Positions 3,702 to 62,676 of a DNA stretch of 64,000 bases are shown one piece after another. The stretch is taken from the sequence record OZ035782.1, one strand, 5' to 3'. Source of the DNA: Felixounavirus LF110P2. Position numbers and translations under genes: made by a program. The notes beneath the pieces were generated by a model that saw nothing but the letters and a program-made list of their open reading frames with translations, was not told the DNA's origin and did not search any database. Position 1 is the first letter of the stretch. Every line of letters starts with the position of its first letter.

Positions 3702-4031
3702 TTAATCTGCCAACCTTAAATTGAAATTAACACCAAATTTTTCACATACTTCCAACATATACTCAAGGGAGACGTTACCAGTGAGATGGATTATGTTGGA
3801 TACACGAGCCTGAGAGATACCACAAATTTTAGCAACTTGCTCTTGAGAAAGACCTCTGGATTTAATCTCTCTCTTAAAACGATGTGCAACGAAGTCTCTC
3901 ATTTCGTCTACATCCATTGGGCAAATATAACTTTCCATTTCAGCCTCTCTATCAGCCTCCCAATCATCTTGTGGGGCATAAGGGTCAAAAACCTCATTCA
4001 TCTTTCTTCTTCCGTTTACGTGAAGTGTCAA
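3702..4031 (-). CDS. HTH (XRE-like) DNA-binding protein
   Basis: C-terminal LSQEQVAKICGISQARVSNI helix-turn-helix signature. Confidence 0.5.
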   Translation of the reverse strand: MTLHVNGRRKMNEVFDPYAPQDDWEADREAEMESYICPMDVDEMRDFVAHRFKREIKSRGLSQEQVAKICGISQARVSNIIHLTGNVSLEYMLEVCEKFGVNFNLRLAD

Positions 4032-6454: not shown

Positions 6455-6760
6455 TCATTTTCTCTTACCACCAATCTCTACGTCAATAACTTGAACATCA
6501 CCAGCAACATCAAACTTATGAATGATGCTTTCCACAGTGTAAGTCCAACCCTCGATTCGAACCAACTCACCTTCTCGTGGGACGATTGGGTTACGTTGAG
6601 CTACGGTTGTAGTGGAGTGAACAACATCATAACAGTATATATAGTTCACTAGGACTTCCATCTTGAACACCTCACTCAATAACAGTAGTGTGTGATTGAC
6701 CATTTTTGCCATAGCTATAAGATGTTGTTGTTTGAGAGTTTGGACACCTGACAACAACAA
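6455..6760 (-). CDS. hypothetical protein (start uncertain)
   Basis: ORF overlaps the upstream lipoprotein gene; true start is probably an internal Met near 6658. Confidence 0.3.
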   Translation of the reverse strand: MLLSGVQTLKQQHLIAMAKMVNHTLLLLSEVFKMEVLVNYIYCYDVVHSTTTVAQRNPIVPREGELVRIEGWTYTVESIIHKFDVAGDVQVIDVEIGGKRK

Positions 6761-6932
6761 TGTCTCTGCTTATGGCATCACCATGTAACTTATAGACTTT
6801 GCAATCTTGCATCTCTGGTGGGAGGCTATAAGAAGCGTTTTTGTCCTCGTAAGAGGGATTACAGCCAGATAGAAAGATAACACTAAGCACAATTACTGCT
6901 TTCCACATAATACTTCTCCTATTACTGTTCAC
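6672..6932 (-). CDS. lipoprotein
   Basis: Signal sequence ending in lipobox FLSGC. Confidence 0.5.
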   Translation of the reverse strand: MNSNRRSIMWKAVIVLSVIFLSGCNPSYEDKNASYSLPPEMQDCKVYKLHGDAISRDIVVVRCPNSQTTTSYSYGKNGQSHTTVIE

Positions 6933-36882: not shown

Positions 36883-37431
36883 ATGAAGAAATTGATTCTA
36901 GGTTTGTGCTTAATGTTTACAGCACACTTATCTTATGCAGTTGACTGCCCAGAGCTATCAATTAGCCAAAAAGTAAACATGTTAAAAGCTTACCAGTATG
37001 GTGAGAATAACATGGGTAAAGGTTGGGGTATCACTCTAGCTGCTATAGCCTTACAAGAGTCAGAGTTAGGTCTGAAGGTAGAGAATAAAAAGACACATGA
37101 TTATGGTATTTTCCAGAATCACTTGAAGACTGTTGTAAAGCGTAACAAAATTAGTCCTAATGTGGCTAAAAAGAAACTCTTAAGAGACTTTGACTATGCT
37201 GCAAAGGAAACGCACAAAGAACTTGAATTTTGGACAAAGGTGCATGGTCAGCCAAAGTCAAAGAAAACTTTACAAAAAGTTTTAGCATCATATAATGCTG
37301 GGTATTCGTACAGAATCCCTAAAGCTAAAAAATATTCTCAAGATGTCTATAACAACATGAAAGTTATCGCTCAATGTGAATTTGCAACAAACATTTCTAA
37401 GGTAAATCATGAAAAAATTAAGAAAGTCTGA
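36883..37431 (+). CDS. secreted protein, possibly lytic-transglycosylase-like
   Basis: Signal peptide MKKLILGLCLMFTAHLSYA; AIALQESELG resembles an SLT catalytic-Glu region; weak. Confidence 0.4.
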   Translation: MKKLILGLCLMFTAHLSYAVDCPELSISQKVNMLKAYQYGENNMGKGWGITLAAIALQESELGLKVENKKTHDYGIFQNHLKTVVKRNKISPNVAKKKLLRDFDYAAKETHKELEFWTKVHGQPKSKKTLQKVLASYNAGYSYRIPKAKKYSQDVYNNMKVIAQCEFATNISKVNHEKIKKV

Positions 37432-38104
37432 TGAAGTACTGTGTCATGCTTATGACTTACATCCTCATGAGTTAGGTCTTGATTCCTGTGTATGGACTCC
37501 AGAACAGTGTAGGGATTTTGAAGACACTGCAAGAGAAGTTGTATGTTCACTTGAAGAGTTTCACACATCAGAGCCAATTGTGAATGTTGTAGATAAAGAG
37601 ACTGGACAAACTATAGGGGTAAGTCGTGATAGTTTAGTCATAGTCAATAAAGACCTTGTAGAAAAAGGTAACCTCATCTTAGCAGATATTGATGGTGTTC
37701 TTACAAATTTTAATCACGAAGATTGCTCAACGGAATTGACTGATGGGTCATTCTCACAGTACACTAATCTTCTTGACTCTGTAAGAGCAAAACCAACGTA
37801 TGTTTTTAGTATTATTGATGCAATTGCTAATCATGCTGCCATTGGACTCTTGACAGCGAGAGGTGAATCTCAGAGAATACCTACTGAGATGTTTTTAAGG
37901 CATAACATAGAGCATGACTACATGCTTTTTATGCGTGGTTTTGGAACTAACTCTATAAGTGCAGAAAGTTTGAAAGTGAGGATGATTCAGTCTTGCATCC
38001 TGCCTTACTTTAATATAGTATGTTTTATAGAAGACACAGAGAAGAATGTGCAGAAGGTGAACAGAATCCTTCCACACATTAAAACCATGTTAGTTAAACA
38101 TTGA
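37409..38104 (+). CDS. hypothetical protein, possible HAD-like hydrolase
   Basis: LADIDGVLTN resembles HAD motif I (DxDGxL); weak. Confidence 0.35.
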   Translation: MKKLRKSDEVLCHAYDLHPHELGLDSCVWTPEQCRDFEDTAREVVCSLEEFHTSEPIVNVVDKETGQTIGVSRDSLVIVNKDLVEKGNLILADIDGVLTNFNHEDCSTELTDGSFSQYTNLLDSVRAKPTYVFSIIDAIANHAAIGLLTARGESQRIPTEMFLRHNIEHDYMLFMRGFGTNSISAESLKVRMIQSCILPYFNIVCFIEDTEKNVQKVNRILPHIKTMLVKH

Positions 38105-38589: not shown

Positions 38590-38614
38590 CAGGCTCCTTC
38601 GGGAGCCTTTTTCA
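38590..38614 (+). terminator. rho-independent terminator
   Basis: GGCTCC-TTCG-GGAGCC hairpin plus TTTTTCATTT. Confidence 0.6.
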
Positions 38615-38631
38615 TTTCAGGAGATTGTTAA

Positions 38632-38979
38632 ATGACATTTAAAGAGTTCTGTCAAGCTACTTTCATAATTGTTTTCTTAGTTGGGGCGGGTGTCTGGGGA
38701 GGGTACTCTTACAGAGACTACCAAGTTGCTGAAACTGAGCTAAACAATCAAAAGCTCATAAGTGTTGCTAAAGATGCTTATCAGGAAGGATTAGTTACAC
38801 TGAGCGCCAATTACAAAAATGATTTGAAAGATGTGCTTGCTAAGAATAAGCACACAAAAGAGGTACTAACATATGAAAAAACTAAGCCAGAGTTTTATAA
38901 TGTTTGTGTTACTGATAATTATGTCAGGGTGTTCAACGAACAAAGTGAACAGTACATTCAAAAACTCCCAAGTAAGTGA
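38632..38979 (+). CDS. i-spanin-like protein (Rz-like)
   Basis: N-terminal TM helix (FIIVFLVGAGVWGG) then charged helical periplasmic domain; overlaps a lipoprotein gene in another frame. Confidence 0.5.
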   Translation: MTFKEFCQATFIIVFLVGAGVWGGYSYRDYQVAETELNNQKLISVAKDAYQEGLVTLSANYKNDLKDVLAKNKHTKEVLTYEKTKPEFYNVCVTDNYVRVFNEQSEQYIQKLPSK

Positions 38980-39142
38980 GAGTGATAAGTACACTCAAGA
39001 AGAATCACGGTATATCATCAAAGGCAACACAGGCAGTGATGTAGCAGCAGCACTTGAGTTCTACCGTGACGGCTTTTACCAGTGTACAATTAAAGCTAAT
39101 AACCTTATTGACATGATTTTATTAGGGAATAAGCAGCAATGA
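38873..39142 (+). CDS. o-spanin-like lipoprotein (Rz1-like)
   Basis: Signal peptide with lipobox IIMSGC; starts inside the 3' end of the preceding gene in a different frame. Confidence 0.5.
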   Translation: MKKLSQSFIMFVLLIIMSGCSTNKVNSTFKNSQVSESDKYTQEESRYIIKGNTGSDVAAALEFYRDGFYQCTIKANNLIDMILLGNKQQ

Positions 39143-53022: not shown

Positions 53023-53487
53023 TTACTTTGGGTATAAACTGTCAAGATAAATATCAGCTTCCATTCTACGTCTGTTTTTCAGTCCGTTTGAAGTGACTTT
53101 CTTACCTTTGACTGTAACCTTGTTCCACCACTGCATAGCTTCTGCACAACCTACCTTATCACCATCGTTGTGGCGCTTGATAAATGTGGAGTCCTGCATA
53201 GCTGTGATACCAATGTTGTATGTTTCACTTACAAGTGCGTCAAACTCATTCTGAGAAGTTGGAACCTTGACGGCTTTGTTCACTGCTGCAACGAACTTTT
53301 CAACATCTGCGAGAAGATACTGTTCAGCTTGTTCAGCGGTAATCTTCATACCCATCTTAACAGGTTTACCAGCAATACGGATTGTCCCATACCCAATTGT
53401 GGGGATTCCAGCAGAATCTTCGTAAGCCTCTAGCTTAAGACCTTCAAAGAACTTAATAGCGTCTAAACCTTTTCTTGAGAGTTGCAT
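53023..53487 (-). CDS. endolysin, GH24 lysozyme
   Basis: N-terminal KFFEGLKLEAYEDSAGIPTIGYG (EG...Y.D..G..TIGYG catalytic region) typical of T4 e / lambda R-type lysozymes. Confidence 0.8.
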   Translation of the reverse strand: MQLSRKGLDAIKFFEGLKLEAYEDSAGIPTIGYGTIRIAGKPVKMGMKITAEQAEQYLLADVEKFVAAVNKAVKVPTSQNEFDALVSETYNIGITAMQDSTFIKRHNDGDKVGCAEAMQWWNKVTVKGKKVTSNGLKNRRRMEADIYLDSLYPK

Positions 53488-58280: not shown

Positions 58281-58357
58281 CTCTGTTTAGCTCAGCTTGG
58301 TAGAGCGTTCCGTTTGGGGCGGTAAGGCCGGAGGTTCAAGTCCTCCAACAGAGACCA
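58281..58357 (+). tRNA. tRNA-Pro (anticodon UGG)
   Basis: Cloverleaf by eye: acceptor CTCTGTT/AACAGAG, D-arm GCTC..GAGC, loop TTTGGGG, T-arm GGAGGTTCAAGTCCTCC, CCA encoded; one mismatch in anticodon stem. Confidence 0.6.
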
Positions 58358-58364
58358 AATTAAT

Positions 58365-58442
58365 GTTCCAGTAGACAAAATGGTATAGTCATCACTCTTT
58401 CAAAGTGGATATTTGAGGGTTCAAATCCCTTCTGGAACGCCA
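58365..58442 (+). tRNA. tRNA-Glu (anticodon UUC)
   Basis: Acceptor GTTCCAG/CTGGAAC, loop CTTTCAA, T-loop GGTTCAAATCC, CCA encoded. Confidence 0.6.
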
Positions 58443-58448
58443 GTTTTG

Positions 58449-58522
58449 ACAGAAGACCAATTACAGCAAACTTAATCTTATTCATCTGAAGGTAAATCGG
58501 ACAAAGAAGAGATTTGGTCTGG
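58449..58522 (+). ncRNA. conserved stem-closed element, copy A (candidate small RNA)
   Basis: ACAGAAGACCAATTACAGCAAA...TTGGTCTGG; 7-bp closing stem AGACCAA/TTGGTCT. Confidence 0.4.
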
Positions 58523-58533
58523 TCATTAAGAAT

Positions 58534-58610
58534 TGCGGGTATAGAGAAAGGGCGTCTCACATGTCTCATTAGCATGGTATCGGCAGGTTCGACTCCTGCA
58601 CCCGCCTCCA
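58534..58610 (+). tRNA. tRNA with CAU anticodon (Met/fMet/Ile2 unresolved)
   Basis: T-arm GCAGGTTCGACTCCTGC, 3' acceptor ACCCGCC + T + CCA; position 1:72 unpaired (U:C); loop CTCATTA. Confidence 0.5.
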
Positions 58611-58615
58611 AATTT

Positions 58616-58680
58616 ACAGAAGACCGTTTACAGCAATATTTATTAAATTTTTAGCGGAAAAATTGAAAGATACGGTCTGG
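58616..58680 (+). ncRNA. conserved stem-closed element, copy B
   Basis: ACAGAAGACCGTTTACAGCAA...ACGGTCTGG; closing stem AGACCGT/ACGGTCT (compensatory change relative to copy A). Confidence 0.4.
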
Positions 58681-58693
58681 TAATACTAAACAT

Positions 58694-58770
58694 GGTTAGG
58701 AAGCACATAAGGTATGTGCGGTCGCCTGTTAAGCGAATGGCACAGGGTTCGAATCCCTGACTAACCGCCA
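58694..58770 (+). tRNA. tRNA-Asn (anticodon GUU)
   Basis: D-arm GCAC..GTGC, loop CTGTTAA, T-arm CAGGGTTCGAATCCCTG, CCA encoded. Confidence 0.6.
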
Positions 58771-58839
58771 AATTTAGGAGAGAAGCGATTGCTCACCGAT
58801 TTGTAAGGTGCAAGTCCTTAGCCTGAATAGAAATTAAAT

Positions 58840-58927
58840 GTGTCGTTATCCCGTAGATGGTAGCGGTGGGGACTGTAAATCCCTTGTCATTGAGACTCGG
58901 TAGGTTCGACTCCTACACGGCACACCA
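58840..58927 (+). tRNA. tRNA-Tyr (anticodon GUA), long variable arm
   Basis: Anticodon stem-loop GGGGA-CTGTAAA-TCCCT, long variable arm, T-arm GTAGGTTCGACTCCTAC, CCA encoded; 88 nt. Confidence 0.6.
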
Positions 58928-58932
58928 ATAAA

Positions 58933-59010
58933 GGTTATGTAGTTTAATTTGGTTAAAATACTCCCCTGTCACGGGAGATGATGAGGGTTCAAATCCCTTC
59001 GTAACCGCCA
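58933..59010 (+). tRNA. tRNA-Asp (anticodon GUC)
   Basis: Acceptor GGTTATG/CGTAACC, anticodon stem-loop CTCCC-CTGTCAC-GGGAG, T-loop GGTTCAAATCC, CCA. Confidence 0.65.
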
Positions 59011-59071
59011 ATTTTGAGAGGGCTATTTAGCCCCTCCCTTAAAGGGTTCTTACGAGTATCCTTTAAAGGAG

Positions 59072-59148
59072 CAGAAGACCAAATACAGCAAGAATGTATG
59101 ATATTTTCAAGCCAATTCAATTTTGAAAAAATTTAAAACTTGGTCTGG
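59072..59148 (+). ncRNA. conserved stem-closed element, copy C
   Basis: GCAGAAGACCAAATACAGCAAG...TTGGTCTGG; closing stem AGACCAA/TTGGTCT. Confidence 0.4.
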
Positions 59149-59161
59149 CTCAAAAAATTTA

Positions 59162-59293
59162 CAGAAGACCGTTTACAGCAAAACTTAAACAATCTATTTC
59201 TCCGGTAAAGAAAAGGCGAAGGTTCGATTCCTTCACTCGGCAGATGTCGAGTTGGTGTAATGGTAGCACTTAAGATGATAAACAACGGTCTGG
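59162..59293 (+). ncRNA. conserved stem-closed element, copy D, enclosing a circularly permuted tRNA-like domain (YrlA/Y-RNA-like candidate)
   Basis: Closing stem AGACCGT (59166-59172)/ACGGTCT (59285-59291); inside, in order: T-arm GAAGG-TTCGATT-CCTTC (59218-59234), ACTCGGC (59235-59241), loop AGAT, GTCGAGT (59246-59252, pairs with ACTCGGC), D-arm GTGT-AATGGTA-GCAC (59255-59269). Confidence 0.45.
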
Positions 59294-59298
59294 TAATT

Positions 59299-59434
59299 AT
59301 CTTTGTAGATAAGTTATTAAGCTTACCTGTGAGTATGCGACCACAAAGGGTGAAAGGGTAAATTCTAGATTTAAACCCAAAAAGGCACATCGCTACAGAC
59401 CTTAAGCAAGTCTGGGTAGCTTATCTACAAAGAT
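59299..59434 (+). ncRNA. structured element closed by a perfect 15-bp inverted repeat (candidate small RNA)
   Basis: ATCTTTGTAGATAAG (59299-59313) pairs with CTTATCTACAAAGAT (59420-59434); encloses 106 nt with internal hairpins. Confidence 0.35.
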
Positions 59435-59442
59435 AATTTAAT

Positions 59443-59518
59443 GGAAGTGTAGCAGAATGGTGATGCGGCAGACTTTTAATCTGACAGGCGATGGGTTCGA
59501 ATCCCTCCACTTCTACCA
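59443..59518 (+). tRNA. tRNA-Lys (anticodon UUU)
   Basis: Acceptor GGAAGTG/CACTTCT, loop CTTTTAA, T-loop GGTTCGAATCC, CCA encoded. Confidence 0.6.
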
Positions 59519-59523
59519 AAAAT

Positions 59524-59600
59524 GGTTCAGTCGCAGATAAGGTAATGCAAGGGTCTCATAAACCCTATGAATGTGGGTTCGATTCCCATCTGAACCTCCA
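59524..59600 (+). tRNA. tRNA with CAU anticodon (Met/fMet/Ile2 unresolved)
   Basis: Acceptor GGTTCAG/CTGAACC, anticodon stem-loop AGGGT-CTCATAA-ACCCT, T-loop GGTTCGATTCC, CCA. Confidence 0.65.
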
Positions 59601-59601
59601 A

Positions 59602-59677
59602 GCTGGTATAGTTAAGAAGGTTATAACACTCCCCTGATAAGGGAACATCGGTGGTTCGATTCCACCTACCAGTACCA
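59602..59677 (+). tRNA. tRNA-Ile (anticodon GAU)
   Basis: D-arm GTTA..TAAC, loop CTGATAA, T-arm GGTGGTTCGATTCCACC, CCA. Confidence 0.65.
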
Positions 59678-59692
59678 ATCTCAATAAAGTTG

Positions 59693-59721
59693 TTGACACT
59701 GAGATGTGACTACTTTATAGT
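59693..59721 (+). promoter_or_regulatory. candidate internal sigma70 promoter within the tRNA array
   Basis: TTGACA (59693-59698), 17-nt spacer, TATAGT (59716-59721). Confidence 0.5.
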
Positions 59722-60014
59722 AACTAAAATACTTCATAATATGTATAATTCAAACACCAATACATGAGCGTTAGACGTAACACAATGTGGGGAAATTTGT
59801 TGTACATATTCTGAATAGTTTTCGTTGCGTAGCGTCTATTTTGCAAATTTAAAATAAATGCAAACGACAATGTTTTTCTGGCAGTAGCTTGATAGGCTAA
59901 ACACCAGTGAGGTCTTCCAATCCCTCATCAAAGAATTTGGCGTACTCGCCCACGGTATGATTAATAAGGTGGGCATCTTTAAGGGCTTTCTAAGAGAGTC
60001 TTTAAAGATTAATG

Positions 60015-60091
60015 CACCCTTAGTTCAATTGGATAGAGCAACGGTCTTCTAAATCGTTAGTTACAGGTTCGAATCCTGTAGGGTGTGCCAA
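60015..60091 (+). tRNA. tRNA-Arg (anticodon UCU)
   Basis: D-arm GTTC-AATTGGATA-GAGC, anticodon stem-loop ACGGT-CTTCTAA-ATCGT, T-arm ACAGGTTCGAATCCTGT, CCA. Confidence 0.65.
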
Positions 60092-60232
60092 TTAGTTAGC
60101 AGATTACTTAGACGACCTAAGCGGGTCTTCCTGTAGGGAGGTTGTCTGTATCTCATGTTTTCCAGAACATGTAAATAATCTGAGAAGGGGCTTTACAGTG
60201 TTGAGATAATACGGTAAGCTTCGAATTGTAGT

Positions 60233-60315
60233 GTGGGACGATGTTAAGACTCTAAGGCATGAGCAACGGCCTCCAAAACCGTTTCAAAGGGGTTCAACTC
60301 CTCCGTCCCATGCCA
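60233..60315 (+). tRNA. tRNA-like gene, Trp-type anticodon CCA, non-canonical (7 extra nt between acceptor and D-arm)
   Basis: 3' part canonical (loop CTCCAAA, 5-nt variable, T-loop TTCAACT, acceptor GTCCCAT+G+CCA), but the pairing 5' strand GTGGGAC lies 7 nt further upstream than a standard cloverleaf allows. Confidence 0.4.
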
Positions 60316-60328
60316 AAGTCTTATTAGG

Positions 60329-60416
60329 GGTAGGTAGCGGCTAATGGCAGCCAAACAGTCTTGAAAACTGTTGCCACTGTAGAGATACGGTGAGGGTTCG
60401 ACTCCTTTACTTACCG
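60329..60416 (+). tRNA. tRNA-Ser (anticodon UGA), long variable arm, CCA not encoded
   Basis: Anticodon stem-loop AACAGT-CTTGAAA-ACTGTT (like E. coli tRNA-Ser UGA), long variable arm, T-loop TTCGACT, acceptor GGTAGGT/ACTTACC + G, then CCT. Confidence 0.55.
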
Positions 60417-60673
60417 CCTAATAAGATTTAAAGCCAAGCTTCATTCGGATGTTGCTTTGGTATACCGCGTGTATTGTTGTACGCACTGATAAAGCACCTA
60501 GTAGGTGTCACGGAGAAGAGATAATATCAAGCTCTCCAAAGGTTCTAGTCACCGGATTAAACAAGACTATGCAAAGACCTTTTTAGGTCTTTTTAGAGGG
60601 CTTCTAAGGTTATTACAGCTTGTTGTGGAACCTTGTTGCTTAGGTTCTTAGAAGTTCTCTAAAAAGATTTAAT

Positions 60674-60751
60674 GGGAGATTGATGGTAATTGGTAAACCT
60701 ATCTCGCTTAGAACGAGATGTTTGAGGGTTCGAATCCCTTGTCTCCTACCA
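60674..60751 (+). tRNA. tRNA with Leu-type anticodon UAG, short variable arm
   Basis: Anticodon stem-loop ATCTCG-CTTAGAA-CGAGAT, T-arm GAGGGTTCGAATCCCTT, acceptor GGGAGAT/GTCTCCT, A73, CCA; variable region only 4 nt. Confidence 0.5.
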
Positions 60752-60758
60752 AATTAAT

Positions 60759-60834
60759 GCAGGTGTAGCAAAATGGTTATGCGGCTGACTCTTAATCAGT
60801 AAGACGATGGGTTCAATTCCCTCCACCTGTACCA
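60759..60834 (+). tRNA. tRNA-Lys (anticodon CUU)
   Basis: Paralog of tRNA-Lys(UUU) at 59443; loop CTCTTAA; T-loop GGTTCAATTCC; CCA. Confidence 0.6.
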
Positions 60835-60840
60835 AAAAAT

Positions 60841-60916
60841 GGGGTCATAGTTTATATGGTTAAAATTCGAGTTTTGCAAACTTGGGAACTGAGTTCAATT
60901 CTCAGTGACTCCACCA
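60841..60916 (+). tRNA. tRNA-Ala (anticodon UGC)
   Basis: Acceptor GGGGTCA/TGACTCC with G3:U70 wobble (Ala identity element); loop TTTGCAA; T-arm CTGAGTTCAATTCTCAG; CCA. Confidence 0.7.
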
Positions 60917-60922
60917 ATTAGT

Positions 60923-60997
60923 GCATCCATAGTTTAAACGGGAAAATTACAGTCTTCCAAACTGAGGTTGAGGGTTCGATTCCCTCTGGATGCTCCA
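60923..60997 (+). tRNA. tRNA-Gly (anticodon UCC)
   Basis: Acceptor GCATCCA/TGGATGC perfect; loop CTTCCAA; T-arm GAGGGTTCGATTCCCTC; CCA. Confidence 0.65.
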
Positions 60998-61003
60998 AAT
61001 AAT

Positions 61004-61079
61004 GCTCCTATCGTATAATTGGCTATTACGGTTGCCTTGTAAGCAACTTATCAGGGTTCGAATCCTTGTGGGAGCACCA
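61004..61079 (+). tRNA. tRNA-Thr (anticodon UGU)
   Basis: Anticodon stem-loop GTTGC-CTTGTAA-GCAAC perfect; T-loop GGTTCGAATCC; CCA. Confidence 0.7.
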
Positions 61080-61175
61080 ATTCAGAGGTCAAGTGAAAGA
61101 CCGCTTTGAGTCAACTGAAGACCGTAACAAATTCCACGGAGTTGAGTTAGCGGCACAACTTCAGACCTCTTTCAC

Positions 61176-61250
61176 ACTCGCTTAGTTTATATGGTAAAAC
61201 ACCACCCTTACAAGATGAAGAAAAAGGTTCAAGTCCTTTAGTGAGTACCA
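61176..61250 (+). tRNA. tRNA-like gene, Val-type anticodon UAC, weak anticodon stem (possible pseudo-tRNA)
   Basis: Good acceptor (ACTCGCT/AGTGAGT), D-arm GTTT..AAAC, T-arm AAAGGTTCAAGTCCTTT and CCA, but anticodon stem around CTTACAA pairs at only 3 of 5 positions. Confidence 0.4.
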
Positions 61251-61251
61251 T

Positions 61252-61329
61252 GTTCCAGTATCCCAATTGGCAGAGGATGCAAGCTCAAACCTTGTATTAG
61301 TGACGGTTCGAATCCGTCTTGGAACACCA
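61252..61329 (+). tRNA. tRNA with Leu-type anticodon CAA, short variable arm
   Basis: Leu-like D-loop (CCCAATTGGCAGAGG), anticodon stem-loop GCAAG-CTCAAAC-CTTGT, T-arm GACGGTTCGAATCCGTC, A73, CCA; variable region about 6 nt. Confidence 0.5.
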
Positions 61330-61334
61330 ATTTT

Positions 61335-61410
61335 GCAGGATTAGTTCAAATGGATAGAGCAACAGTCTACGAAACTGTTAATAGGGGTTCGAATCCCTTA
61401 TCCTGCGCCA
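61335..61410 (+). tRNA. tRNA-Arg (anticodon ACG)
   Basis: Acceptor GCAGGAT/ATCCTGC perfect; anticodon stem-loop ACAGT-CTACGAA-ACTGT perfect; T-loop GGTTCGAATCC; CCA. Confidence 0.75.
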
Positions 61411-61428
61411 GATAAGCAAGAGGAATTT

Positions 61429-61671
61429 ATGCAAACATTAATCGTCGTTGAACATGAAAATCCCAATAGTATTGAGTTTGTAAGGGTTCCCACTATAGAT
61501 ACCCACATTTTCTTAAAAGTCGGATGGGAATGCGACCCAATAAAAGTAGAAAGATTTATTGGTCATTGCTTTGGTGGAAGACAACTTAAAAGTGTCAATT
61601 TTGAGACAATGTTACCAGAAAGCTCAGAAACAAGTAATAATGCTTACCTCCTTACGAGGGTTAGACAATGA
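61429..61671 (+). CDS. hypothetical protein embedded in the tRNA array
   Basis: 80-aa ORF with ATG start directly after tRNA-Arg(ACG). Confidence 0.4.
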   Translation: MQTLIVVEHENPNSIEFVRVPTIDTHIFLKVGWECDPIKVERFIGHCFGGRQLKSVNFETMLPESSETSNNAYLLTRVRQ

Positions 61672-62225
61672 GATACTTAAAATATGCTTCATGGATTTTC
61701 TTAGCTTTGCTAGAACCACTTGCAGCAATACTAGCAGTTATCTTAGCACCTTTCGTAGTTCCATTCTACAGTGAGAAGAAAGGACATCTACCTTTCGGAT
61801 TTAGATGGATGGAAACTTATGACAACCCAATTGATGGTGATGAAGGTCACGTTAAAAGATGGGCTAATATTAGATGGATTGGTAAGCTTGGTGTCTATAT
61901 GCAGAGAGTCGGTTGGCTCTGGAGAAACAAAGCTTATAACTTCTCTTACCATGTGTTAGGAAGAGATGTAAAAGATGTTACTAAGTGGAAAGGTAATATC
62001 AACGTAAGTTCTAACCCTGAAGATAATCAGACAGGTTATCTCCTAATGTGGAACAGTAATTCTTGGGGATTATTCGCTTTTATCCCATCAATTAAAGTCT
62101 TTGGTAAACAGTTTTACTGGAGAATTTATGTTGGATGGAAACTTAAAAGTGTTGTCCCAGAAGAAAGAGCATTCTCAAGGGAAAGAGTTATGTTGGCATT
62201 CTTTATTCATCCACTGAGAAAGTAA
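61668..62225 (+). CDS. hypothetical protein (Trp-rich) embedded in the tRNA array
   Basis: 185-aa ORF with hydrophobic N-terminus; ATG 61668 overlaps the previous stop. Confidence 0.45.
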   Translation: MRYLKYASWIFLALLEPLAAILAVILAPFVVPFYSEKKGHLPFGFRWMETYDNPIDGDEGHVKRWANIRWIGKLGVYMQRVGWLWRNKAYNFSYHVLGRDVKDVTKWKGNINVSSNPEDNQTGYLLMWNSNSWGLFAFIPSIKVFGKQFYWRIYVGWKLKSVVPEERAFSRERVMLAFFIHPLRK

Positions 62226-62233
62226 AGATTTAA

Positions 62234-62309
62234 AGGGGATTAGTTTACAAGGTTAAAACCTCGGTCTTTGAAATCGAAGAAGTTGGTTCAATTCCAACAT
62301 CCCCCGCCA
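62234..62309 (+). tRNA. tRNA-Gln (anticodon UUG)
   Basis: D-arm GTTT..AAAC; anticodon stem-loop TCGGT-CTTTGAA-ATCGA; T-arm GTTGGTTCAATTCCAAC; CCA; coordinates anchored to flanking ORF stop/start. Confidence 0.6.
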
Positions 62310-62311
62310 AT

Positions 62312-62390
62312 GCTCCATTACTCCAATTGGCAGAGAGGCCAGACTTAAAATCTGTGTTATGTATCGGTTCGAATCCGATATGGAGTACCA
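62312..62390 (+). tRNA. tRNA with Leu-type anticodon UAA, short variable arm
   Basis: Leu-like D-loop (CCAATTGGCAGAGAGG); loop CTTAAAA; T-arm ATCGGTTCGAATCCGAT; A73; CCA; variable region about 7 nt. Confidence 0.5.
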
Positions 62391-62395
62391 AATTT

Positions 62396-62471
62396 AGCGG
62401 TATAGCATAACTGGCAATGCAGCAGTCTCTGAAGCTGTCTTATTAAGGTTCAAATCCTTATGCCGCTGCCA
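62396..62471 (+). tRNA. tRNA-Gln (anticodon CUG)
   Basis: Anticodon stem-loop GCAGT-CTCTGAA-GCTGT; T-arm TAAGGTTCAAATCCTTA; CCA. Confidence 0.6.
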
Positions 62472-62502
62472 CTTCTAAGGGTTCTTACGAGAGTCCTTAA
62501 AT

Positions 62503-62578
62503 GTGGCCTTATCATAAATGGTAATGACCCATGCTGTGAACATGGTCTATACGGGTTCAAATCCCGTAGGTCACCCCA
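62503..62578 (+). tRNA. tRNA-His (anticodon GUG)
   Basis: Anticodon stem-loop CCATG-CTGTGAA-CATGG perfect; T-arm ACGGGTTCAAATCCCGT; discriminator C73 + CCA; no encoded G-1 (preceding base is T). Confidence 0.65.
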
Positions 62579-62584
62579 ATTTAT

Positions 62585-62660
62585 AGTCCAAGTAGCTTAT
62601 ATGGTTAAAGCGCGTGTCTGAAAAACATGAGAAGAGGGTTCAAATCCCACTGGACTACCA
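62585..62660 (+). tRNA. tRNA-Phe (anticodon GAA)
   Basis: D-arm GCTT..AAGC; anticodon stem-loop CGTGT-CTGAAAA-ACATG; T-loop GGTTCAAATCC; CCA; one acceptor mismatch. Confidence 0.55.
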
Positions 62661-62676
62661 ATTTCAAAGGTGCTTA

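What the first reader, a model, noticed from the sequence alone, without database searches (positions are those of the whole stretch)
38632..39142. Overlapping-frame spanin-like gene pair far from the endolysin
A TM-anchored coiled-coil protein (38632-38979) contains, in another frame within its 3' third, the start of a lipoprotein gene (38873-39142; lipobox IIMSGC). This overlapped i-spanin/o-spanin arrangement is characteristic of Gram-negative phage lysis cassettes, yet the endolysin is about 14 kb away on the other strand and no holin is adjacent.
Basis: partly seen in the sequence, partly recalled or inferred. Interest (0 to 1): 0.45.

Follow-up and report, generated by a model that had tools for sequence, protein, structure and literature searches.

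The report
Felix O1-type overlapped spanin gene pair
This is the two-gene "spanin" pair that a Felix O1-like phage most likely uses to break the bacterial outer membrane at the end of infection; both the pair and its position away from the other lysis genes are already described for this phage group, so it is ordinary.

Summary
ORF 38632-38979 (115 aa) has an N-terminal transmembrane segment. ORF 38873-39142 (89 aa) starts in the +1 frame inside its last third and has a textbook lipoprotein signal (MKKLSQSFIMFVLLIIMSG|C, then S,T). The window is a Felixounavirus, 100% identical to LF110P2. The same two genes are annotated i-spanin/o-spanin in Mushroom, Moogle, Meda and other relatives. Kongari et al. 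2018 list Felix O1 among the "overlapped" two-component spanins. Genome papers on Moogle and Meda already say that Felix O1-like lysis genes are scattered, as in T4.

- 29 distinct sequences show codon-position selection in each single-coded part and flat, reduced variation in the 107-nt overlap, so both frames are coding.
- The +1 overlapped pair, the lipobox Cys and one further periplasmic Cys in each protein persist in distant relatives.
- Two of those relatives carry the pair beside an endolysin: Klebsiella phage Carvaje (holin-lysozyme-holin-spanin cassette) and Pectobacterium phage Wc4.

The endolysin (53023-53487, minus strand) and the putative holin (61668-62225) are confirmed as distant. 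Only the "coiled-coil" label is unproven.

Verdict: already known, low interest.

The parts
38591..38616 (+). Intrinsic-terminator-like hairpin (AGGCTCC-TTCG-GGAGCCT) plus T-run, ending about 15 nt before the i-spanin start codon
   Evidence: Terminator scan. The same hairpin-plus-T-run layout, with different stem sequences, occurs upstream of the homologous pair in Moogle, Michonne, Erwinia phage M7 and Kuravirus Paul. Its role in spanin expression is inferred only.
38619..38623 (+). Ribosome-binding site AGGAG of the i-spanin gene, 8 nt before the ATG
   Evidence: Read from the sequence. An RBS is annotated at the same place in Mushroom and Moogle.
38632..38979 (+). i-spanin gene (115 aa): N-terminal TMD at about residues 6-24, then a periplasmic domain whose conserved C-terminal motif EK..F.N.C....Y....N contains Cys92
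   Evidence: ORF list; hydropathy; PHROG 1152 'Rz-like spanin' at E 2e-41; invariant residues E82 K83 F88 N90 C92 Y97 N102 across 8 diverse homologues; third-codon-position variability 0.74 against 0.27/0.17 in the non-overlapped part.
38858..38863 (+). Ribosome-binding site AAGAGG of the o-spanin gene, inside the i-spanin coding sequence, 9 nt before the ATG
   Evidence: Read from the sequence. The sequence aaagaggta is conserved at this position in SUSP2, Moogle, Michonne and wV8, and an RBS is annotated there in Mushroom and Moogle.
38873..39142 (+). o-spanin gene (89 aa): lipoprotein signal peptide at residues 1-19, lipobox Cys20 (codon 38930-38932), Ser/Thr at +2/+3, 70-aa mature part with the conserved C-terminal motif EFYRD.FY.C..K.N.LID containing Cys71
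   Evidence: ORF list; PS51257 match; PHROG 4180 at E 3e-51, PHROG 2425 at 2.5e-9 and PHROG 456 'Rz-like spanin' at 2.4e-4; invariant C20, G54, C71, N76, L78 in 8 diverse homologues; third-position variability 0.84 against 0.28/0.15 in the non-overlapped part.
38873..38979 (+). 107-nt dual-coding overlap (o-frame = i-frame +1). It encodes the conserved C-terminal 35 residues of the i-spanin and the signal peptide plus first 16 mature residues of the o-spanin.
   Evidence: Nucleotide diversity is 0.053 here against 0.118 and 0.151 in the flanking single-coded parts, with no codon-position periodicity (0.26/0.19/0.28). The +1 overlap is kept in all 12 other loci examined, in several phage genera.
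53023..53487 (-). Endolysin (soluble T4/P22-type lysozyme, 154 aa), the muralytic partner of the lysis system, 13.9 kb away
   Evidence: Pfam PF00959 at E 3.9e-41 and PHROG 7 endolysin at E 1.7e-56; annotated 'endolysin' in Mushroom.
61668..62225 (+). Putative holin (185 aa, DUF7338): one N-terminal TMD plus a large C-terminal domain, embedded in the tRNA array, 22.5 kb from the spanins
   Evidence: The homologue is annotated 'holin' in Mushroom, described as class III and T4-like in PMC4392139. TMD hydropathy 2.44 at residues 9-27. Pfam gives only DUF7338 and PHROG 2143 is 'unknown function'. The Meda authors did not accept a holin call, so this assignment is weak.

Best explanation
The two ORFs are the two-component spanin of a Felix O1-like myophage, in the overlapped gene arrangement.

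Shown by sequence:
- The 115-aa product has one N-terminal membrane-spanning segment and a mostly helical soluble part.
- The 89-aa product has a signal-peptidase-II lipoprotein signal with Ser at +2.
- Both frames are under purifying selection.
- Each protein has a conserved C-terminal motif containing one invariant cysteine.

Inferred from established knowledge of lambda Rz/Rz1 and T4 PseT.3/PseT.2:
- The i-spanin sits in the inner membrane, N-in and C-out.
- The o-spanin is lipidated at Cys20 and carried by Lol to the inner leaflet of the outer membrane.
- The two C-terminal regions bind across the periplasm, threaded through the peptidoglycan mesh, and homodimerise through disulfides at i-Cys92 and/or o-Cys71.
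- Once the holin (candidate at 61668-62225) lets the lysozyme (53023-53487) destroy the wall, the complexes are released and fuse or disrupt the outer membrane, completing lysis.

The overlap is tolerated because the i-spanin's constrained C-terminus is paired with the o-spanin's signal peptide and linker, which have loose sequence requirements. The remote position reflects the T4-like scattered organisation of lysis genes in this phage group. Expression probably comes from read-through of the terminator that lies just upstream; this last point is inferred only.
For: - Identity of the window: 100% match to Felixounavirus LF110P2, and 257 phage records match the region.
- ORFs, TMD, lipobox, Ser/Thr at +2/+3 and RBSs.
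- Family match: PHROG 1152 'Rz-like spanin' at E 2e-41 for the i-ORF, and a weaker spanin PHROG 456 for the o-ORF.
- Curated i-/o-spanin annotations at the same coordinates in Mushroom, Moogle, Andreotti and Paul.
- Kongari 2018 lists Felix01/FO1a/UAB_phi87 as overlapped two-component spanins.
- Dual-coding selection signature in 29 distinct sequences.
- The +1 overlapped pair, with TMD, lipobox and S-T at +2/+3 (T-T in Carvaje), is conserved in Suspvirus, Mooglevirus, Kolesnikvirus, Hafnia phage Zyzzx, Pectobacterium phage Wc4, Kuravirus Paul and Klebsiella siphophage Carvaje.
- Lysis context elsewhere: in Carvaje the homologous pair ends a holin-lysozyme-holin cassette, and in Wc4 it directly follows a PF00959 endolysin.
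- Kongari 2018 found at least one periplasmic Cys in 507 of 528 two-component spanins. Here both proteins have an invariant one.
Against: - I found no experiment on this particular spanin family. The function rests on sequence features, gene arrangement and context.
- There is no Pfam hit (Rz or Rz1 families) and no detectable similarity to T4 PseT.3/PseT.2.
- The best o-spanin PHROGs (4180, 2425) are labelled 'unknown function'.
- Coiled-coil character is not demonstrated.
- The mature o-spanin has no proline, unlike lambda Rz1.
- The genes lie behind a terminator in a block of early-looking genes (rIIA/B, PNK-like), with no promoter of their own detected.
Confidence: 0.93

Rival explanations
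1. The pair is an envelope module that is not used for lysis. For example, it could be a superinfection-exclusion or receptor-masking outer-membrane lipoprotein (like T5 Llp or lambdoid Cor) together with an inner-membrane partner, expressed early.
For: The genes sit among early-type genes (rIIA, rIIB, PNK-like, macro-domain protein), far from the endolysin. The o-protein's best PHROGs are 'unknown function'. The window holds a second small lipoprotein gene elsewhere, at 6672-6908, so phage lipoproteins with other roles do exist here.
Against: Homologues of both proteins occupy the canonical spanin slot of a holin-lysozyme-holin cassette in Carvaje and follow the endolysin directly in Wc4. The strict pairing with a type-II TM protein in a +1 overlap, and one conserved Cys in each C-terminal motif, is the spanin signature. 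No other spanin candidate was noted in the window, nor is one annotated in the Mushroom genome.
Confidence: 0.05
2. Only the 115-aa gene is real. The 89-aa ORF is a chance open frame with a fortuitous lipobox and is not translated.
For: Several depositors did not annotate it, or called a truncated start: 'hypothetical protein' in UAB_Phi87, an MSGC start in Andreotti, a start downstream of the lipobox in Zyzzx, and no annotation in Carvaje and Wc4.
Against: In the 163 nt beyond the i-spanin stop, variation is concentrated at o-frame third positions (0.84 against 0.28/0.15), with 60 synonymous against 32 non-synonymous variants. The ORF, its lipobox Cys and its C-terminal motif persist down to about 27% identity in other genera. 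It has its own conserved Shine-Dalgarno sequence.
Confidence: 0.01

Closest known systems
Felix O1 / Mushroom / Moogle i-spanin and o-spanin (overlapped two-component spanins catalogued by Kongari et al. 2018)
   Same: The same genes. The proteins are 77-99% identical, with identical lengths, overlap and neighbours: rIIB, a 182-aa protein, PNK-like, a 154-aa protein, then the spanins.
   Different: Nothing of substance. This window is simply another isolate, identical to LF110P2.
Phage T4 PseT.3 / PseT.2 spanins
   Same: The same kind of system and the same genome logic. The i-spanin is short (117 against 115 aa), the o-spanin is comparatively large and probably structured rather than proline-rich, and the genes are remote from endolysin and holin. 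In both phages they lie one gene away from a polynucleotide kinase/phosphatase gene.
   Different: There is no detectable sequence similarity beyond the signal peptide. The T4 genes overlap by only 4 nt ('separated'), whereas here the overlap is 107 nt. T4 has no Cys in the i-spanin and two in the o-spanin; here each protein has one periplasmic Cys. The gene order relative to the kinase is reversed.
Phage lambda Rz / Rz1
   Same: A type-II inner-membrane protein plus an outer-membrane lipoprotein encoded in the +1 frame of the same DNA, and conserved periplasmic cysteines. This is the presumed mechanism (PMC6139136).
   Different: Lambda Rz1 is fully embedded, 40 aa when mature and proline-rich. 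Here the lipoprotein gene runs past the i-spanin stop, the mature protein is 70 aa and it contains no proline. There is no Pfam Rz/Rz1 match. Lambda's genes are in a lysis cassette.
Spanin pairs of Kuravirus (phiEco32/Paul), Kolesnikvirus (Erwinia M7), Pectobacterium Wc4 and Klebsiella Carvaje
   Same: The i-spanins fall in the same sequence family (PHROG 1152). The o-spanins of Paul and Carvaje fall in PHROG 2425, which the window's o-spanin also matches at 2.5e-9, and all align with it. All share the +1 overlap and the conserved Cys motifs.
   Different: Identity is only 22-35%. The context varies: a full lysis cassette in Carvaje, next to the endolysin in Wc4, and orphan behind a terminator and next to a macro-domain gene in Paul and M7.

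Membership tests
Two-component spanin, overlapped architecture (Summer 2007; Kongari 2018) | The i-spanin has a single N-terminal transmembrane domain (type II, N-in/C-out) | tested here: met
   Hydropathy peak of 1.75 at residues 6-24 and no other hydrophobic segment. An N-terminal hydrophobic peak is present in all 13 sequences examined. The topology itself was not testable.
Two-component spanin, overlapped architecture (Summer 2007; Kongari 2018) | The i-spanin periplasmic domain is alpha-helical with coiled-coil propensity | tested here: inconclusive
   AlphaFold models are helical, but mean pLDDT is 45.6 for the single sequence and 59.7 with a 14-sequence alignment. A crude heptad test was not significant.
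Two-component spanin, overlapped architecture (Summer 2007; Kongari 2018) | The o-spanin has a signal-peptidase-II signal with a lipobox Cys | tested here: met
   PS51257 pattern match MFVLLIIMSGC with Cys20 and a KK n-region. The Cys is invariant in 8 diverse homologues. LipoP/SignalP were not available here, but LipoP support is quoted in the record of the Paul homologue.
Two-component spanin, overlapped architecture (Summer 2007; Kongari 2018) | Outer-membrane sorting: no Asp at +2 of the mature lipoprotein | tested here: met
   +2/+3 are Ser-Thr here. +2 is Ser in 12 of the 13 sequences listed and Thr in Carvaje; none has Asp.
Two-component spanin, overlapped architecture (Summer 2007; Kongari 2018) | The o-spanin gene starts inside the i-spanin gene in the +1 frame and ends beyond it | tested here: met
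   107-nt overlap with frame offset +1. The same offset is found in all 13 loci, with overlaps of about 100-164 nt where the start is well supported.
Two-component spanin, overlapped architecture (Summer 2007; Kongari 2018) | At least one periplasmic cysteine available for intermolecular disulfides | tested here: met
   i-spanin Cys92 and o-spanin Cys71 are invariant. Disulfide formation itself was not testable.
Two-component spanin, overlapped architecture (Summer 2007; Kongari 2018) | Both reading frames encode proteins (purifying selection in each) | tested here: met
   Codon-position variability and the drop in diversity across the overlap.
Two-component spanin, overlapped architecture (Summer 2007; Kongari 2018) | Genetic association with holin/endolysin genes | tested here: met
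   Not met in this genome: the endolysin is 13.9 kb away and the putative holin 22.5 kb away. Family members are in or next to lysis genes in Carvaje and Wc4. T4 shows that this linkage is not obligatory.
Two-component spanin, overlapped architecture (Summer 2007; Kongari 2018) | Required for outer-membrane disruption; complements lambda Rz/Rz1 mutants | not testable with these tools
   I found no experimental paper on the Felix O1 pair.
Lambda Rz / Rz1 sequence families (Pfam) | A significant match to the Pfam Rz or Rz1 models | tested here: not met
   No Pfam family at E <= 0.01 for either protein. The pair is analogous in function, not a sequence member.
T4 PseT.3 / PseT.2 sequence families | Detectable sequence similarity to T4 PseT.3 and PseT.2 | tested here: not met
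   BLASTP gave no alignment for the i-spanins and matched only the signal peptide for the o-spanins (E 0.038).
PHROG 1152 'Rz-like spanin' | A significant full-length profile match | tested here: met
   E 2e-41 over residues 1-115. The Paul, Wc4 and Carvaje i-spanins hit the same PHROG.

The most novel reading that the evidence does not exclude
One spanin family (PHROG 1152 with PHROG 4180/2425) has moved as a unit between genomic settings in unrelated virulent phages. It lies inside a lysis cassette in Carvaje, next to the endolysin in Wc4, and 'orphan' in Felixounavirus, Kolesnikvirus and Kuravirus. In the orphan setting it recurrently sits directly behind an intrinsic terminator and upstream of a macro-domain gene. 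That layout would suggest a conserved terminator-read-through way of setting spanin dosage or timing, independent of the late lysis transcript.
Probability: 0.25. Interest if true: 0.3.

Novelty: already known. Interest (0 to 1): 0.1.

Why it matters
It matters little beyond correct annotation. The pair completes the three-step lysis set (holin, endolysin, spanin) of a Felix O1-like phage, a group used in Salmonella and E. coli diagnostics and biocontrol. The case also illustrates two known annotation pitfalls: overlapped o-spanin genes are often missed or given wrong starts, and lysis genes need not be clustered.

Tried and rejected
- Similarity to T4 PseT.3/PseT.2: none beyond the signal peptide, so the T4 parallel is organisational, not homologous.
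- Pfam and NCBIfam on both proteins: no meaningful hits. The NCBIfam matches are far below cut-off and mostly reflect the signal peptide.
- AlphaFold on the i-spanin, alone and with a shallow 14-sequence alignment: low confidence, unusable for fold search, so no fold search was run.
- The big protein database gave only 15 mostly close homologues of the i-spanin, so it did not deepen the alignment.
- Crude heptad test for a coiled coil: not significant.
- Could the 182-aa 'putative lysin' upstream (36883-37431) be an adjacent endolysin? It has a Sec signal peptide and SLT-like motifs, but only a sub-threshold Pfam SLT hit and no PDB sequence match. It is a widespread protein also found in T4-like phages, not the recognised endolysin. 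I left it as a side note.
- Search for transcriptome data on Felixounavirus: nothing relevant.

Full report
**What is there**

The two ORFs are exactly as described. ORF 38632-38979 (+) encodes 115 aa starting MTFKEFCQATFIIVFLVGAGVWGGYSYRD. An AGGAG lies 8 nt upstream of its ATG. Its only hydrophobic stretch is residues 6-24, with a Kyte-Doolittle 19-residue mean of 1.75.

ORF 38873-39142 (+) encodes 89 aa starting MKKLSQSFIMFVLLIIMSGC-STNK. An AAGAGG lies 9 nt upstream of its ATG. It matches the PROSITE lipoprotein pattern PS51257, with the lipidated Cys at position 20 and Ser/Thr at +2/+3, so there is no Asp inner-membrane retention signal.

The second ORF starts 241 nt into the first, in the +1 frame. 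It overlaps the first by 107 nt and runs 163 nt beyond its stop.

Only two ORFs in the six frames of the 64-kb window carry such a lipoprotein signal, against a mean of 0.48 in shuffled windows.

**Where the window comes from**

The region is 100% identical to Felixounavirus LF110P2 and 96-99.9% identical to many Felix O1-like phages of Escherichia, Salmonella and Shigella. In all, 257 records match.

**Is the overlapping frame really coding?**

I took the 511-nt segment from 33 related loci, 29 of them distinct. All keep both ORFs open at identical length.

| Segment | Fraction of variable sites at codon positions 1/2/3 | Nucleotide diversity |
|---|---|---|
| i-spanin only (241 nt) | 0.27 / 0.17 / 0.74 (i-frame) | 0.118 |
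| Overlap (107 nt) | 0.26 / 0.19 / 0.28 (no periodicity) | 0.053 |
| o-spanin only (163 nt) | 0.28 / 0.15 / 0.84 (o-frame) | 0.151 |

This is the signature of two translated frames.

**What it is**

- The 115-aa protein matches PHROG 1152 'Rz-like spanin' over its whole length (E 2e-41).
- The 89-aa protein matches PHROG 4180 (E 3e-51, unnamed), PHROG 2425 (2.5e-9, unnamed) and, weakly, spanin PHROG 456 (2.4e-4).
- Curated records call the same two genes i-spanin and o-spanin: Mushroom (84324-84671 and 84161-84430, the same lengths and the same overlap), Moogle, Andreotti, dune, ekra and others.
- Kongari et al. 2018 (PMC6139136) list 'Felix01, FO1a, UAB_phi87' under the overlapped architecture of two-component spanins.

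**Relatives further away**

Protein-level searches find the pair in several other lineages:
- Suspvirus and Mooglevirus;
- Hafnia phage Zyzzx;
- Kolesnikvirus (Erwinia phage M7);
- Pectobacterium phage Wc4;
- the podophage genus Kuravirus (phiEco32, Paul);
- the Klebsiella siphophage Carvaje.

In every one of 13 loci the lipoprotein ORF starts in the +1 frame inside the 3' part of a gene for a TM-anchored protein.

Alignments of eight diverse members show the following:
- In the o-spanin, the lipobox Cys20 and a second Cys (C71) are invariant, the latter inside EFYRD.FY.C..K.N.LID.
- In the i-spanin, E82, K83, F88, N90, C92, Y97 and N102 are invariant, inside EK..F.N.C....Y....N.

The conserved C-terminus of the i-spanin is encoded by the same DNA as the o-spanin's signal peptide and linker. 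That is a plausible reason why the overlap is tolerated (inference).

**Context evidence for a lysis role**

- In Carvaje the homologous pair closes a cassette annotated holin / lysozyme / holin-or-antiholin / i-spanin. The lysozyme matches PF00959 at E 2.3e-5. The o-spanin there is unannotated but present.
- In Wc4, itself a member of Ounavirinae, the pair directly follows a PF00959 endolysin (E 1.7e-28).

So the family occupies the canonical spanin slot where a cassette exists.

**The 'far from the endolysin' point**

This is confirmed as fact:
- The lysozyme gene is at 53023-53487 on the minus strand (PF00959, E 3.9e-41), 13.9 kb away.
- The only holin candidate is at 61668-62225. It belongs to DUF7338, has one strong N-terminal TMD, and lies inside an array of 26 tRNA genes.
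- None of the immediate neighbours has a holin-like TMD.

It is not an anomaly for this group:
- The Meda paper says the same, and adds that no holin was identified (PMC6486253).
- The Mushroom paper calls it a T4-like lysis system (PMC4392139).
- T4's spanin genes pseT.3/pseT.2 are also remote from e and t.

T4's spanin genes lie one gene away from the polynucleotide kinase gene pseT. Here the pair lies one gene downstream of a PNK-like gene (37409-38104; PHROG 3970). The spanin proteins of the two phages show no sequence similarity, however.

**Mechanism**

*Shown by sequence:* one membrane anchor of each kind, OM-type sorting residues, conserved C-terminal motifs each with a Cys, and dual coding.

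*Inferred from the lambda and T4 work summarised in PMC6139136:*
- The i-spanin is anchored in the inner membrane and the lipidated o-spanin in the outer membrane.
- They bind through their C-terminal regions across the periplasm and form disulfide-linked dimers.
- After the endolysin removes the peptidoglycan mesh, they disrupt or fuse the outer membrane.

*Differences from lambda:* the o-spanin is larger (70 aa mature) and contains no proline, so it resembles the structured T4-type o-spanin in kind.

*Not established:* the 'coiled-coil' description. AlphaFold gives helices at about residues 39-59, 65-80, 84-94 and 96-111, but with mean pLDDT 59.7 (45.6 without an alignment). A simple heptad test is not significant.

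**Regulation (inference only)**

A strong terminator-like hairpin (38591-38608, followed by a T-run) lies between the upstream 154-aa gene and the i-spanin RBS, leaving no room for a promoter. The same hairpin-then-RBS layout, with different stem sequences, precedes the pair in Moogle, Michonne, Erwinia M7 and Kuravirus Paul. In the Paul record the depositors annotated it as a terminator. The pair may therefore be expressed by read-through at a reduced level.

**Rivals**

- A non-lysis envelope role, such as superinfection exclusion, is disfavoured by the cassette contexts and by the paired architecture.
- A chance ORF is excluded.

**Verdict**

The feature is already known and catalogued, so interest is low.

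Noticed in passing
window 36883-37431 (+): A 182-aa protein with a classical Sec signal peptide (MKKLILGLCLMFTAHLSYA|VD) and, by eye, the three lytic-transglycosylase motifs (ALQES, GIFQ, SYNAG). The Pfam SLT hit is below threshold (E 1.2e-3, 18.9 bits against a 21.3 cut-off) and there is no PDB sequence match. Homologues occur in 2123 phage records, including T4-like and Vi1-like myophages, labelled variously 'putative lysin', 'lytic transglycosylase', 'endoribonuclease' and 'RegB-like'. It may be a secreted muralytic enzyme of unknown role, 1.2 kb upstream of the spanins on the same strand.
   Followed up: partly
window 38591-38616 (+); also L005 about 3909-3930, L007 and L039 upstream of the i-spanin start: A terminator-like hairpin plus T-run lies about 15-20 nt before the i-spanin start codon. 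It recurs with different stem sequences in Mooglevirus, Kolesnikvirus and Kuravirus. It is absent where the pair follows an endolysin or sits in a cassette (Wc4, Carvaje), and no such hairpin was folded upstream in SUSP2 or Zyzzx either.
   Followed up: partly
window 40133-40918 (+); L007 3495-4277; L005 4439-4879: A macro-domain protein gene (PF01661, E 1.2e-7; annotated 'phosphatase') lies downstream of the spanins. In Erwinia phage M7 (44% identity) and Kuravirus Paul (25% identity, E 1e-8) the macro-domain gene directly follows the o-spanin gene. This hints at a spanin-macro linkage shared between unrelated virulent phages.
   Followed up: partly
window 6672-6908 (-): A second small lipoprotein ORF (78 aa from the ATG, MWKAVIVLSVIFLSGC-NPS) lies between the DNA ligase and DNA polymerase genes. 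It matches PHROG 902 (unknown function, E 3.9e-17). It has no TM-protein partner, so it is not a spanin; it could be an exclusion or other envelope lipoprotein.
   Followed up: partly
window 58281-63585 (+), with 61668-62225 (+): An array of 26 tRNA genes on the plus strand is interrupted by the 185-aa DUF7338 gene that the Mushroom annotators call a class III holin. The gene is co-directional with the tRNAs here, whereas the Mushroom record lists the tRNAs on the strand opposite to that gene.
   Followed up: no
L001 3922-4143 (Andreotti), L006 3073-3252 (Zyzzx), L041 and L040 (Carvaje, Wc4): There are o-spanin annotation errors in public records. The Andreotti start is placed at MSGC, so the signal peptide is lost. 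The Zyzzx start is placed after the lipobox. The gene is not annotated at all in Carvaje and Wc4, where a GTG start at L040 3001 seems likely.
   Followed up: yes
L040 1572-3276 (Pectobacterium phage Wc4): In this Ounavirinae member the order is Ig-domain protein, endolysin, i-spanin/o-spanin, all contiguous. In Mushroom the Ig-domain protein and endolysin are adjacent but the spanins are about 14 kb away. The spanin pair has therefore changed location within the subfamily.
   Followed up: partly
window 37409-38104 (+) and L009 6003-7782 (T4): The spanins lie one gene away from a polynucleotide-kinase/phosphatase-like gene both here and in T4 (pseT.3-pseT.2-pseT.1-pseT), although the spanin proteins are unrelated in sequence and the gene order is reversed. 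This could be coincidence or a trace of old synteny.
   Followed up: partly
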